Source: Octopus vulgaris
Lineage: Eukaryota
Assembly: GCA_951406725.2 (NCBI GenBank)
Contig: OX597818.1
Span: forward strand, 5,394,001-5,458,000
Direction: 5' to 3'
DNA length: 64,000 bases
This document shows positions 9,243 to 61,362 of the stretch, piece after piece. The notes beneath the pieces were generated by a model. The model had not been told where the DNA came from. It searched no databases and was given only the letters and a program-made list of their open reading frames with translations. The stretch's first letter is position 1. Each line of letters begins with the position of its first letter. The position numbers and the translations under genes are program-made.

Positions 9243-9287
9243 TGAACTAGTACTTTCATGCATTGAATTCTGCAATCTTCGGGTTCA
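9243..9287 (-). ncRNA. Minimal type I hammerhead ribozyme, left PLE arm
   Basis: Exact mirror of 13464-13508. Confidence 0.75.
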
Positions 9288-9781
9288 TGTAGTAGTGTTG
9301 ACAGTCATGCTTCACAATTTTTGACTGTAGCAAGATGAGTGATTCTGTGCTATAAATACAGCTGGGTAGGCTCCAGAGTGCTAGGTTTTGCAAACTGTAT
9401 TCTGACCAATCAGTGTGTAGTATCACTCAATTACTTAAGCTGATTGGTTGGTTGAGCTGATTGGTTTAGGCATCACGCTTTGTTGGACAGGTCAAGAGTC
9501 CTGTATCTTGACCCTGGCCGAAGCAGCAATTGTTGGGTTATTTTTAGAAATGTTGTAAATATCCTTTGTCAGAGATTTTTATATTTTTATATTTCAATTG
9601 TCATCATCATCATTGTCAGCACCTTAATTATTGTTGCTAGTGGTGATGGTGGTGGCAATAGAACTTTTAACCCTAAATAAGATAATTTTCCTGCTATCTT
9701 CGTCTTGATCACCTTTAGTATTGTTGTTGTTGTTAGTGGTCATGGTCGTAGCAGTGGAAGTAATACCTCTAAGTATTATTA

Positions 9782-56414: not shown

Positions 56415-58416
56415 ATTGAATTTTCTCGCGACTTCCATGCTTCTCCTCTCATATTTTATATATATATATATTTATACATCTCAATATATACATATCTATT
56501 TATCTACCTGTATGTATTGTCTGTGTGTCTGTCTGACGGTCTATCTATCTATCTATCTATCTATCTATCTATCTATCTATCTATCTATCTATCTATATAT
56601 ATATATATATACACACACACACACACACACACACACACACACACATATATATATATATATATATATATATATATATATTCAGAAGTCAAACACGAATATT
56701 AATAAACAAACGGACGGAAAAACTTACTAAATGCACCGAATGCACAGGCGAACGGAGGGCGAACACAAGTCACCAATTCCTTACCCGTTATCGGCCAAGG
56801 CATGGAGCGCTGTCATTATTGATAATATTGCATCCACCTTTGCACACACTCAGCAAGAAAACTTGCTGGAAATGCGACCAAAACATATTAACACAAGACG
56901 GACAAACAAGAAGGAAGGAGGAACAAAAAGAACGAAATAAATAAACAGAATATGGCCTTAGGGCCACGTAAAAACAACCTAAACAATAGTAATACCTATA
57001 CAGCAAAAACAGCCATGGGCTAGCAGACAGACAGGAGAGAAGTAACACGAAGCAGAATGACTATGCACATGCACAGATATATGTGCATGTGTGTGTGTGT
57101 GTGTAGTAAAAAGGGTGGAAGAGTGAGACAACGTGAAGACGTGCAGCATGTCATGTGTTTCGCATCAAAATCACCACACTTTCACACCCTCTGAAATTGT
57201 GCTTTGGTTTTGCAGTACCACTAACCTAAGGTATCTGGTCAAATAAAGACATGATAGGCTAACAAAGACTGATATGTTGACACATTGGCGTTAACAGAAA
57301 TACGGGCGTTCTCTAAACTGAATCCTAAATAAAATCGTGCTGTACGGAGATTAGAAGAGAAAGTGAAACAAGCCATAAGTTTGCAGATTGTACACCTTTC
57401 GACTTGGTGACTGAATTAAGACCAGATCTGAGAAATAACGCTTATGACATGAGAGTGTACCTTTCAGTCTTCAGGATAAAGCTGAAAAGTTAAACGGTCC
57501 ATTCCCAGAAAAGAATGAGCATCACAAAAATCAGGAAAGGGAAGTATCTGCGTATATGGCAAATGAAAGACGGAATATGTAATATCCGGAAATATATAGA
57601 TATATATGTTAAGTGTCAAACAGACAGAATACAACAAGGAGAAGAAGTTTGACGAAAGGAATGCAAACGAGAAACTAGTTGAAAACTTAACAGATTGGGA
57701 ATATAGACAAAGACACAGTACACGCAATATTCGCAACTGAATTATTCTCGTCAGTGAGTGAGCCAAAACATCGTCATGGTTTCGCGCCAATATCATTGAA
57801 ATCACTCAATCTTGGAGGTACCAGTGGTGTTACTTAGCTACCGGGAAAAAGCTAGCGAATATTTACTAGGAAGAAACAAACGTGATATAAATACTACAGA
57901 GGAAGAATTAAGCATATATAATTGCACGAAACCTCACAGAAGAAATCATAAGAATAATTCTACAAATACTACAAATACAACAGAAAGAGATTTGCACCTA
58001 TCGGTCAAACAGTGGGATTGCGTGGAGTAAAATGGAGTACGTCCTAATGGATGTAGCAAAAGCTCAGACAAACATGACCAGTCTGGTTAAAAGCAGGGCG
58101 AAAAAGAACAAAACTGCCTATATCGGACACCGGTCACATGGTAGGTAAGGGGTAATATAGAGAAAGAGAAAGTATATATATATATATATATATATATATA
58201 TATATATATATATATATCAGAAATATTAAATTTTTAAATATCTCATAGAGATATGTACCGTGGTGGAGCGATCGAGTGGTTGTATACCGTCAACTTAACG
58301 TGACAGTCCTGTAAGGGAATTACACCACCGCTATTTAGCCATAGGAATCATCAACGCTTCCTGTCGGCCTTGACACATTTCCTGTGTCCTTATAAATTTA
58401 CGAAGGGGAGACATAA

Positions 58417-61362
58417 AACATTTAAGCAGTTAATAATTAAGACCAAATCGCATGTTAATTAGTATCATGAATATACTTTTCAAGTTCGAACAGTTTACTA
58501 AATATACTTAATAAGCATTAAATTATCATTAAAGTTGGACAGTGCCTATCATTAAATATAATAATTTCAAGGATTATTTTGGTCCTCATTTGGGTGCAGC
58601 TATGCTAGGTCCACTAACAAATTAGTACTATGAATAAAGGTTTCATATTCAAACAATTTATTAAATATTCTTAATATGCATTATACTACCCTAAACATTA
58701 GACTACTCATACCATTAAATGTAATAATTTAAAAATTATAAATTACAAATTAACATTTGCAGCGTGGAAGGTGTTTATAAGCCATTTCAAAACACACCGT
58801 TAGGTTCACTTCAACATTTAAATTTAAATTGTCAAAATATTTTCGTCGCTCTGAAACCGGACCTTTTCATTTGATATTATTTTGGTATTGCTTTGATAAC
58901 AAGTTGTGGGTTAGAAAGGTCACCCCTGTTTTTTTTTATATAACCATGGGATCCCCTAACTCAGCGGCAGTAACTGACCTTGTGGGAGTTTGCCTTTTAG
59001 ACAACATCTATAAAGTATTCCTTGAAATTGGGGGAGGCCTATATAGAGACAACGCACTTTTTCTAAATAGAAACATCTCTAATAGACGACTTGAACTACT
59101 TAAGAAACGTTTGTATTAATTCTTGAATAGATTCGACCTTTCCATTACTAGAGAGAATGAAAATTAATCTATCAAATACTTAGACGTTAACTGTGATTTC
59201 AATAGGGGTTTACACCAACCTTATATGAAGCCTAACTCTAACTTAATGTATAAAATCTATCAAAGTAACCATCTACAATCAGTAAAAAGGGCTTTAATAA
59301 GAGTCATTAGCAAAATGATGTTCTTTCTCTTATCTAATGAGGACATATTTAATAGTTATAAGGATAAGTATGTTAAGGTACTTATGGAAGCGGGATATAG
59401 AGGTAGAATTAAGTATATCGAACACGAACATGCAATGAATAGTTATAATAACGAATATGTTAACCGCAACATTATTGCGCATGACCTAAGCGATGTAAAA
59501 ATGCATAGGGGGCTACCGCTAATGACGCTAATAGGATCAGATTTAGTAACAGTATGAGTAACGATAAGAATGACAGTAACACAGTTGACAAAGACTGACT
59601 TAGCTAAGCAATTTTTAATGTTATAAATAAGCATTTTGATAAGAATAATGCGTATTCTAAACTTGTAAAAGGTAGTGCAATAAGGATAGGATATAGTCTT
59701 ACACATAAATTAGCGAGTATTATAAGCTCCCTGAATAATAAAAAAATTAGATATTTTCTACTTCAATAGATACCAAAAATAGCAACGAAGGCAGTATTAG
59801 AAGAAATAAAAACAATACACACAACCCCAACGTTTGTAAAGAAAACACTCAGAGCCAAAATAACCACTTTAATCTCAATACATGTAACTCTACCCCACTA
59901 GGAAGCAATTTCCCCTACAGCAAAATCTATGTGACTGTAGGAATAGCGATAATTGTGCCTTCAGCAATACCTGTAGACTTAAGGACGTAATTTACCAATG
60001 TACATTCACAACACATTTTAATAAAATGAATTTTATAGGAGCTACCCAAAATGGAATAAAATGTAGAGTAGTCACACATCAATATATTTTTAAAATAAAA
60101 CATAATTAACTCGACTGGGTTAAGTAAGTATATTTGGGAATTCAAAGATAGTGATATTAGCTTCACATTAAAATAGGAGGTCCGTGCTACCGCACCTTCG
60201 TATAATGAGAAAATAGAAAATGTTATCTTTGCATTAATGAATATTTTCATTCTAACAGCACGAAACCCTCTAGTGAACCTGAGAGAGGAGAGAAGTGCAG
60301 CTTGCCTGCACAAAGGAAGGTCCACTTTCGATAAATATAAATAGCATTAGAAACACTTATACTACTCCATAATAGTACCAATAACCCCACAGCATATAAA
60401 TAATGGCTTTTGATAGTAAAATGACAATTAATTAAAGGTAGTTTTATTTGTAATTACCTAGGCTATTGCAGGTATTCATTTAAATATTCCCTCCTTTTAC
60501 CCTAATTCTTAGTTTAGTTTTTACCCCCACCCATATCAACTACTTATACCGATTAGTCTCTCCTCCTTAATAATATCATCTAACCCCTTGTAATAATGCC
60601 AGTTATTTCAATCATTAACTTATTTTAGAACGCAGAGAACTTAGGTATTCTGGCCATATAGTTTAATACCCCTAATAACTACTTCAAATCCGAAATTTTA
60701 TTTAAGTTTTAATTTATCTTTTTTGTTTTTTTACCCTCTACCATGGATGTATTTGTTGGCACTTGCTGTAATTTGGACATAATTCTCTACTAAACTTTTG
60801 TTCTTTCTCCACTTATGTTTCTTCTTCCACTTTAAATAGACATTAATAGCCCTACACATTTAGGAATAACATTCCCGATTTATTTCTTTTATCTTATTTT
60901 ATATCTTTATTTTATTTCATTTTATTGTACACAATGTTTACCCTTTTCTACCATATATTGTATGGGTCTGTATGCACTTAGTCTGAAAGTGAAATCCGTT
61001 GACTGAAATAGTATGTCTGCACCCACTTAGAGTCAATATAATTTTTAATTTGTAATTTTTAGATTATTAGATTTAATGATATGAACAGTCGAATTTTTAG
61101 GGTTATGTAATGCATATTAAGAATATTTAGTAAATAGTTTGAATATGAAAACTTAATTCATAGTACTAATTTATTGGTGGACCTAGTATAATTGCATCCA
61201 AATAAGTGCCAATATAGTCTTTTGAATTATTATATTTAATGATAGGAACTATCTAACTTTAATGATAATGTAATGCTTATTAATCATATTTAGTATTGAG
61301 AATTATAGTCATGGTAATAATTAATATGCAATTTGGTCTTAAATATAAATCGCTTAAATGTT
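58417..61362 (+). mobile_element. Old Penelope-like element (RT/GIY-YIG at ~58880-60350) between ~330-bp inverted repeats
   Basis: ITMGSPNSAAVTDLVG, GLYRDN, YLDV, YMKPNS, CDCRNSDNC..VIYQC, STGLSKYIW. 58417-58753 is the inverted homologue of 61045-61362. Confidence 0.85.

What the first reader, a model, noticed from the sequence alone, without database searches (positions are those of the whole stretch)
9243..58875. Many different hammerhead families within 64 kb
Well-formed HHRs at 9243/13464, 14820, 16374, 54887/55478 and 56318; weaker ones at 42695, 43429 and 58830. Their stems differ, but nearly all have a palindromic or near-palindromic stem III (AGTACT, ACTCGGGT, ACATGTGT, ACGTACGT, ATGATCGT, ACCGGT, AACGTT, AATATT), and most lie in segments bounded by (TA)n. 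Inference: this genome may hold a large, diverse population of PLE-associated ribozyme elements that prefer TA microsatellites.
Basis: partly seen in the sequence, partly recalled or inferred. Interest (0 to 1): 0.75.

Follow-up and report, generated by a model that had tools for sequence, protein, structure and literature searches.

The report
Hammerhead-rich Penelope retroelement landscape
The hammerhead motifs are real, and they mark a known kind of animal jumping gene (Penelope-like elements and short non-coding repeats that likely ride on them), here estimated at about 100,000 copies in dozens of families, some with a swapped core base pair; they are predicted, not shown, to cut RNA.

Summary
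Observation confirmed. A type I hammerhead descriptor finds exactly the seven 'well-formed' sites (0 in 100 shuffles). The three 'weak' sites are worn copies of real multi-copy families: one canonical, one with a U3:A8 core, one with a swapped G3:C8 core (9,327 genomic matches against 17 controls). Two families are pLTRs of coding Penelope-like elements (one Neptune/Nematis-type and very young, one Hydra-type); two are 353- and 591-nt non-coding tandem repeats (retrozyme-like). Genome-wide patterns give about 57,000 matches above control; a 1.19-Mb systematic sample gives 34 per Mb (22-47), in 18-21 families. Stem III is self-complementary in 87 of 100 unconstrained matches. In three families 90 of 98 3' ends abut (TA)n (5% by chance), cluster at two sites 143-314 nt past the predicted cut, and never lie at the cut: the Penelope 'tail' signature. 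Hammerheads in Penelope elements, palindromic stem III, (TA)n targeting and retrozymes are all published; new are the scale, the G3:C8 family and the insertion signature on non-coding units. Cleavage and circular RNA were not shown. This scan noted the same themes before on other DNA of this genome.

The parts
9105..11391 (-). Family A, left arm: 5'-truncated Neptune/Nematis-type PLE (RT, ZnF linker, GIY-YIG, 3' pLTR); ends 143 nt past the predicted cut, in (TA)n
   Evidence: 99.8% identical to the 4271-nt unit on C1
9243..9287 (-). Family A hammerhead (core CCGAAGA, U4C; stem III AGTACT; H17 at 9248)
11386..13692 (+). Family A, right arm, head-to-head with the left arm (4.6-kb palindrome, 2 internal differences); ends 189 nt past the predicted cut, in (TA)n
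11386..12969 (+). 3' part of ORF2 of family A: RT and GIY-YIG endonuclease with a C-x4-C-x2-C linker
13464..13508 (+). Family A hammerhead in the 3' pLTR, sense to the ORF (H17 at 13503)
   Evidence: 32 of 32 extracted copies identical
14475..15031 (+). Family B insertion: 353-nt non-coding unit, arm 14655-15031(+) with inverted arm 14475-14660(-), (TA)n at both outer ends
14820..14864 (+). Family B hammerhead (CTGATGA; stem III ACTCGGGT; H17 at 14858)
15853..16515 (+). Family C: 5'-truncated 3' end (pLTR) of a Hydra-type PLE, ending in (TA)n
16374..16459 (+). Family C hammerhead with long stem II (stem III ACATGTGT; H17 at 16453)
42634..42811 (-). Family F copy: hammerhead-like motif at about 42695-42731 with U3:A8 core; stem III ACCGGT; window copy lacks one A
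43232..43542 (+). Family G copy: worn tRNA-like head, (TAA)n, decayed hammerhead at 43429-43474 (family form CTGATGA, one unpaired base, 5-6-bp stem II, stem III ACGT)
54392..55870 (+). Family D insertion: 2.5 tandem units of a 591-nt non-coding repeat, (TA)n at both ends
54887..54978 (+). Family D hammerhead, copy 1 (CCGATGA; stem III ACGTACGT; H17 at 54972)
55478..55569 (+). Family D hammerhead, copy 2 (H17 at 55563)
56240..56460 (+). Family E copy: old family (70-85% identity), hammerhead at 56318-56414 (H17 at 56408), ending in (TA)n
58737..58884 (-). Family H copy: worn hammerhead at about 58830-58877; family form has G3:C8 core, 5-bp stem II, stem III AATATT

Best explanation
The window holds eight sequence-distinct repeat families with type I hammerhead motifs: two are end repeats of protein-coding Penelope-like retrotransposons and the rest are likely further Penelope ends or non-coding passengers copied by Penelope enzymes, mostly into TA microsatellites, and the motifs are predicted to cut their RNA as dimers paired through the palindromic stem III. 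Shown: the motifs, their families and copy numbers; the ORF link for A and C; tandem non-coding units for B and D; fixed 3' ends well past the cut, random 5' ends, head-to-head pairs and (TA)n junctions. Inferred: tandem transcripts are cut to unit length by paired hammerheads and, for B and D, closed to circles; a Penelope RT-endonuclease nicks (TA)n on both strands and starts reverse transcription inside the RNA at two sites about 45 nt apart (about 100 in D), one per strand, reading through the cut site, which yields tandem and head-to-head insertions; most copies then decay neutrally.
For: Window 7 hits against 0 in shuffles. Genome-wide 23,687 against 2,737 and 40,674 against 4,253 backwards controls. 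Sample 40 hits in 119 stretches, shuffles 0-3. Pairing left free: 25 of 30 self-complementary stem III, 19 of 30 stem I, 21 of 30 stem II, against 0 of 2 backwards; 87 of the first 100 listed matches self-complementary with 13 of 16 possible palindromes (hand count). Five pairs with double changes among 8 distinct C-like sequences. A lies behind RT plus GIY-YIG; C behind an RT and endonuclease with DKT, CxxC and CxH motifs. 90 of 98 3' ends and 21 of 32 free 5' ends abut (TA)n against 5% random; none of 98 3' ends lies nearer than 143 nt to the cut; 14 of 15 (B) and 8 of 9 (D) head-to-head pairs use one short and one long end. This matches the two internal start sites, both-strand extension and tail of the anole element in vitro (PMC11167929). 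B and D units fold far better than shuffles (z -7.6 and -4.1 as circles, -8.0 and -5.0 without the hammerhead).
Against: No cleavage, circular RNA or transcript end was seen. No coding partner was found for B, D, E, F, G or H: 0 of 30, 0 of 30, 1 of 25, 0 of 10 and 0 of 10 loci of B, D, E, F, G matched ORF2 of A (one probe only, short flanks for F and G; H not tested). In print, metazoan minimal hammerheads cut weakly (PMC4209133), 8 of 9 Xenopus dimers did not cut (bioRxiv 10.64898/2026.07.22.740005), and hammerhead mutants of the anole element inserted normally in vitro (PMC11167929). Tandem read-through RNA explains the arrays as well as circles do. Family E shows no within-family structure signal. 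Local folding of single window motifs is mostly no better than shuffles (6 of 8 with z above -2).
Confidence: 0.82

Rival explanations
1. All families, B and D included, are simply truncated or locally amplified pLTRs of autonomous Penelope elements; there is no separate non-coding RNA replicon and no circle.
For: True for A and C. 5' truncation is the rule. bioRxiv 10.64898/2026.07.22.740005 derives retrozymes from pLTRs and allows local tandem amplification.
Against: B and D are closed head-to-tail units with no ORF match in 30 loci each, and dispersed insertions of up to 2.3 and 4.2 units begin and end at different places within the unit and have fresh (TA)n flanks, so the multimer itself was the template.
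Confidence: 0.1
2. The elements are Penelope-type, but the hammerheads are folded protein-binding or structural signals (or passengers) whose cutting is not needed for transposition.
For: Insertion ends never coincide with the cut. Anole element: catalytic mutants insert normally in vitro and no RNA-seq ends map to the cut (PMC11167929). Craig et al. raise that hammerheads may parasitise PLEs (PMC8557442).
Against: The catalytic core, the 3:8 Watson-Crick pair (93 of 100 paired, with G:C, C:G and U:A) and the palindromic stem III are kept across dozens of families whose helices differ, which points to selection on the active fold. This rival is compatible with the rest of the best explanation.
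Confidence: 0.25
3. The motifs are chance matches in AT-rich, repeat-rich DNA.
For: About 11% of the loose genome-wide pattern matches are expected by chance; freeing positions 3 and 8 raises the window background to 1.7.
Against: 0 in 100 window shuffles; 9- to 39-fold over backwards controls; unconstrained positions pair.
Confidence: 0.01

Closest known systems
Minimal type I hammerheads in pLTRs of metazoan Penelope-like elements (Cervera and de la Pena 2014, PMC4209133; parts 1-2 of 4 read)
   Same: Type I, short palindromic stem III predicted to work as a dimer, unpaired base between 9 and 10.1, many heterogeneous families per genome, most copies solitary, opposite-strand pairs, U3:A8 variant (Schistosoma).
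   Different: Counts here are about ten times theirs for Xenopus (about 9,000) or coelacanth (about 4,000), with different descriptors; 8-nt palindromes and stem II of 40-70 nt are common; a G3:C8 family was not in the parts read.
Hydra and Neptune/Nematis clades of EN+ PLEs (Craig et al. 2021, PMC8557442; passages and section 11 read)
   Same: C-terminal GIY-YIG, canonical hammerhead, (TA)n targeting, tandem and inverted insertions, tail at one end.
   Different: Family A has two ORFs overlapping in the -1 frame at a U UUU UUU site; family C lacks the CxCX5C linker and has a long Asn-rich stretch there.
Animal non-LTR retrozymes (Cervera and de la Pena 2020, PMC7229834, passages and section 14; Li et al. 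2026, bioRxiv 10.64898/2026.07.22.740005, parts 1-3 of 5)
   Same: Non-coding tandem units of a few hundred bases, GC below 45%, one type I hammerhead per unit, strongly self-paired, proposed to be moved by PLEs.
   Different: Circular RNA not shown here; unit D (591 nt) is longer than the 170-400 nt circles described; the insertion ends carry the PLE two-site signature, which the parts read do not report; no cephalopod was mentioned in them.
Poseidon element of the green anole, PAc (Frangieh et al. 2024, PMC11167929; parts 1-2 of 4)
   Same: Two internal start sites downstream of the hammerhead, both target strands extended, AT-rich targets, genomic tail.
   Different: That is in vitro work on one coding element; here the signature is read from genomic copies, including non-coding families, with one arm per start site in head-to-head pairs.

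Membership tests
Type I hammerhead ribozyme | Core C3-U4-G5-A6-N7-G8-A9, G12-A13-A14, A15.1-U16.1, H17 | tested here: met
   Seven window sites; A and D carry U4C; F and H carry compensated 3:8 pairs
Type I hammerhead ribozyme | Helices I and II around the core, supported by covariation | tested here: met
   between subfamilies only, not within young A-D or old E
Type I hammerhead ribozyme | Match to an Rfam hammerhead model | tested here: not met
   No hammerhead family at gathering score or E<=10
Type I hammerhead ribozyme | Self-cleavage 3' of H17 | not testable with these tools
   Needs transcription assay; only assembled contigs were available
EN+ Penelope-like element (families A, C) | RT followed by C-terminal GIY-YIG-type endonuclease, hammerhead in the 3' pLTR on the sense strand | tested here: met
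   A: Pfam RVT_1 and GIY-YIG. C: RT and endonuclease motifs read by eye, no Pfam hit, weak BLASTP to A ORF2, E 0.001
EN+ Penelope-like element (families A, C) | Tandem and inverted insertions with a tail at one end | tested here: met
   A: 4271-nt tandems, ends at +143 and +189. C: opposite-strand pairs and two 3' end classes
Neptune/Nematis clades (family A) | CX2-5CxxC linker and CCHH motif in the endonuclease | tested here: met
   C-x4-C-x2-C and two C plus two H in ORF2; motifs from PMC8557442
Neptune/Nematis clades (family A) | Placement in an RT phylogeny | not tested
   No named reference sequences were available
Hydra clade (family C) | DKT motif, no CCHH, CxxC and CxH flanking the conserved E and N, (TA)n target | tested here: met
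   against the description
Hydra clade (family C) | CxCX5C linker | tested here: not met
   Asn-rich stretch instead; so 'Hydra-type', not filed as a member
Non-LTR retrozyme (families B, D) | Non-coding tandem unit with a type I hammerhead in each unit, GC below 45-50%, dispersed | tested here: met
   353 and 591 nt, GC 0.42 and 0.37
Non-LTR retrozyme (families B, D) | Highly self-paired unit | tested here: met
   z -7.6 and -4.1
Non-LTR retrozyme (families B, D) | Expressed as circular RNA | tested here: inconclusive
   No RNA holder on record; contigs cannot tell circle from tandem

The most novel reading that the evidence does not exclude
This genome is a natural library of about 100,000 hammerheads in 30-60 families, denser than the axolotl's, in which (i) a family of more than 9,000 copies spread with the inverted G3:C8 core pair known to me only as a laboratory rescue mutant, and (ii) non-coding ribozyme circles are copied by a Penelope enzyme from two fixed internal sites at once, one per target strand, giving direct genomic evidence for the proposed Penelope-retrozyme partnership.
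Probability: 0.45. Interest if true: 0.65.

Novelty: new member of a known kind. Interest (0 to 1): 0.42.

Why it matters
The function of Penelope hammerheads and the enzyme that moves animal retrozymes are open questions. This genome offers a very young intact autonomous element (at least 40 copies 100% identical over the 336-nt probe on one chromosome) beside young non-coding units with mapped start sites, so both questions become directly testable. It also shows that Rfam misses a population of order 100,000 motifs, and it supplies natural core variants (U4C, U3:A8, G3:C8) for ribozyme chemistry. The basic biology is published, so the value is scale and testability rather than a new system.

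Tried and rejected
Rfam: no hammerhead hit; only a 5S rRNA and microsatellite-driven miRNA noise. My first descriptor missed hammerheads with one unpaired base before stem II (31 hits); corrected to 40. Expression: no RNA holder listed; contigs of runs guessed to be RNA cover the D unit with a head-to-tail joint and cover the B unit, which cannot separate circle, tandem transcript or DNA, so I use it neither way. Within-family covariation: A invariant, B-D too alike, E gives no hammerhead fold. The first junction count double-counted overlapping loci (B and D numbers replaced; the 5% control is). Assembly artefact for the 4.6-kb palindrome rejected: two internal differences, different outer ends, and like structures elsewhere. 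No strong hairpin behind the slippery site of A (z about -0.6; pseudoknots not modelled). Whether G is the end of a coding element was not settled: the endonuclease fragment upstream in the window was not found before any other G copy held. A 3:8 table from the sample was too small (15 C:G, 2 U:A, 2 others). The protein-representative search for the family C ORF had not finished and gave no result. Two relevant papers recalled from memory (Luense et al. 2017 on dimeric PLE hammerheads; Hammann et al. 2012 review) were not held.
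Full report
Setting. The window is G000:C5:5394001-5458000 of a 2.8-Gb assembly in 227 contigs, AT-rich and full of microsatellites. That it is an octopus is my inference from size, chromosome number and repeats; no call names it.

Observation. All 7 have a self-complementary stem III. Rfam found no hammerhead at gathering score or at E<=10. The sites form five families (A 9243/13464, B 14820, C 16374, D 54887/55478, E 56318). The three weak sites fail in the window but belong to multi-copy families (F, G, H).

Family A. The region 9105-13692 is a head-to-head pair of 5'-truncated copies with two internal differences. 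The ORF has RT and GIY-YIG matches and a C-x4-C-x2-C linker, as described for Neptune and Nematis (PMC8557442, passages). The hammerhead lies on the sense strand behind the ORF. All 40 scored matches of a 336-nt probe were 100% identical and on C1 (987 candidates). The full unit is 4271 nt, in tandem, two units identical; it has a 430-aa ORF1 overlapping a 775-codon ORF2 in the -1 frame at T TTT TTT, which suggests a programmed frameshift (inference; no strong hairpin follows).

Family C. 40 of 1,596 candidates scored, 94-100% identical. Longer copies run upstream into an ORF with RT-like motifs, DKT, and an endonuclease-like end with CxxC and CxH but no CCHH, as described for the Hydra clade, which targets (TA)n and has canonical hammerheads (PMC8557442 section 11). 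The CxCX5C linker is absent, Pfam gives no hit and BLASTP to A ORF2 is weak (E 0.001), so I call it Hydra-type only.

Families B and D. Units of 353 and 591 nt, 2,338 and 1,477 candidates, no match to A ORF2 in 0 of 30 loci each, GC 0.42 and 0.37, folding z -7.6 and -4.1 as circles (40 shuffles) and -8.0 and -5.0 with the hammerhead left out. They fit animal retrozymes (PMC7229834, passages and section 14). 46 of 59 B and 76 of 84 D extracted copies pass the descriptor (overlapping loci not removed there).

Families E to H. E is old (70-85% identity); 4 of 27 extracts pass and the alignment gives no hammerhead fold. G is canonical in its relatives, with one unpaired base before a 5-6-bp stem II; many copies begin with a tRNA-like head and (AAT)n, and 18 BLAST hits in 1.19 Mb suggest tens of thousands of copies. 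F reads U3...A8 in 9 of 10 relatives, a variant already reported (PMC4209133; PMC3088659 passages). H reads G3...C8: a 16-letter pattern with positions 3 and 8 free matched 9,327 places against 17 controls, and the first 100 listed read 90 G:C, 2 C:G, 1 U:A and 7 unpaired (hand count). The C3G/G8C pair is a partial laboratory rescue in PMC11167929. I found no report of a natural G3:C8 family in searches, but two likely papers were not held and supplements were not read.

Genome-wide scale. Sequence-only patterns with an 8-nt stem III AC....GT gave 23,687 matches (stem II 10-40 nt) and 40,674 (41-70 nt) against 2,737 and 4,253 backwards controls, about 57,000 above control; a tighter subset gave 9,721 against 248. 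In 119 evenly spaced 10-kb stretches of C1-C28 (120 asked for) the corrected descriptor found 40 hits in 28 stretches, 33.6 per Mb (bootstrap 22-47), shuffles 0-3: roughly 60,000-130,000 genome-wide, not counting decayed or core-variant copies. They fall into 18 or 21 clusters by threshold, Chao1 27-56. The 160 kb around the window held 8. The window is about three times the average (P about 0.03 for 5 insertions). For comparison, with other descriptors: about 9,000 in Xenopus, 4,000 in coelacanth, about 5,000 in mussel and up to 120,000 in the 28-Gb axolotl, 235 Rfam hits in giant squid (PMC6962438 passage). A 2026 repeat annotation of Octopus vulgaris lists 31 recently active Penelope-like families and never mentions hammerheads in its main text (PMC13282606 passages). 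Searches found no hammerhead survey of a cephalopod.

Covariation, tested without circularity. With pairing left free, 25 of 30 pattern matches in the sample had a self-complementary stem III, 19 a stem I and 21 a stem II; the backwards control had 2 matches with none, shuffles 1, 1 and 4 matches. Of the first 100 matches listed, 87 are self-complementary (75 Watson-Crick, 12 with G-U), using 13 of the 16 possible 4-letter palindromes (hand count); 13 are not, close to the 11% chance share. Among 8 distinct C-like sequences 5 of 25 pairs change on both sides (14 of 500 shuffles reach this; slid controls 1-2).

(TA)n and insertion ends. (TA)n is common (1.2 runs per kb), so controls matter. 28 of 36 sample hammerheads with enough flank have a run within 300 nt downstream and 18 upstream, against 22.5% of random places; one per stretch, 22 of 26. 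After removing overlapping loci, 21 of 25 (A), 37 of 40 (B) and 32 of 33 (D) 3' ends and 21 of 32 free 5' ends abut (TA)n, against 5%, so the run is a target and not only a tail. These loci are the best-scoring, hence youngest, copies. G and H mostly end elsewhere (by eye). No 3' end lies at the cut: A ends at +143 (8) or +187-204 (17), B at +169-177 (19), +209-225 (20) or +256 (1), D at +201/+210 (17) or +240-314 (16). In head-to-head pairs one arm takes the short and one the long end in 14 of 15 (B) and 8 of 9 (D) cases, and in the A pairs that could be resolved. Arms reach 2.3 (B) and 4.2 (D) units.

Mechanism. The ends match the anole Poseidon element in vitro: AT-rich target, both strands cut and extended, two internal start sites that define the tail (PMC11167929, parts 1-2). 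I infer that Penelope enzymes copy all these RNAs, coding or not, from inside and through the hammerhead site. The template is therefore uncut tandem RNA or a re-ligated circle; these data do not separate the two. The palindromic stem III predicts cutting by paired copies (PMC4209133, parts 1-2). Against a needed catalytic role: weak activity of minimal hammerheads, 8 of 9 silent Xenopus dimers (preprint, parts 1-3), and normal insertion by catalytic mutants. For it: core and 3:8 pair kept across families. Expression was not settled.

Verdict. The less ordinary points are the scale, the G3:C8 family and the two-site signature on non-coding units. Notes from this scan report the same points from other windows of this genome; I had reached them before reading the notes, and they are not independent support.

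Noticed in passing
L265:2623-6149 (G000:C1, full unit of family A): Intact, very young PLE with two ORFs (430 aa and 775 codons) overlapping by about 94 nt in the -1 frame at a U UUU UUU slippery site; likely programmed frameshift. Craig 2021 Fig. 1 legend mentions a frameshifted ORF1 in some PLE types, clade not visible to me.
   Followed up: partly
window 43232-43295 and L223, L211, L282, L332: Family G starts with a tRNA-like head (A and B boxes; ARAGORN calls some copies tRNA-Ser at relaxed threshold) followed by (AAT)n and the hammerhead: a SINE-like or polymerase III-driven Penelope end with tens of thousands of copies.
   Followed up: partly
window 42782-43190 (+): Broken GIY-YIG-like fragment (Penelope/Poseidon-like by recalled motif) directly upstream of the G copy; one other copy in L126, not followed by G.
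   Followed up: partly
window 58496-61295: Decayed Hydra-type PLE (RT pieces, CxCX5C linker at 59888) with 257-nt inverted ends; the family H copy sits at its inversion junction.
   Followed up: partly
window 45687-48109 (+): Second decayed Hydra-type PLE (DKT motif at about 46260) with 210-nt direct repeats at 45687 and 47900.
   Followed up: no
window 15732-15850 (-): Full-length 5S rRNA copy (109.6 bits) immediately beside the 5' end of the family C insertion.
   Followed up: no
window 7321(+), 19334(+), 25247(+), 35930(+), 27389(-), 57783(-): Six places where GAAAC precedes CUGANGA within 60 nt; some may be the reversed-order hammerheads that other notes of this scan describe in Naiad and HERO elements; no control was run.
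   Followed up: no
window 179-3571, 4211-5554, 22966-28148, 36769-38782: Broken non-LTR retrotransposons (RVT_1 matches at 1271 and 4868; HERO/NeSL-like and RTE-like by recalled motifs).
   Followed up: no
window 32876-33244 and 49809-50150: Tc1/mariner-like transposase fragments with HTH matches.
   Followed up: no
window 43650-43801 and 44000-44151: 152-nt inverted repeat (95%) between (TA)n runs, with a third related copy at 44672; another small TA-lodged element.
   Followed up: no
L214, L243, L253, L271: A common family with a longer, 16-nt stem III region (imperfect palindrome) and a 3-bp stem II, ending 20-30 nt past the cut in (TA)n.
   Followed up: no
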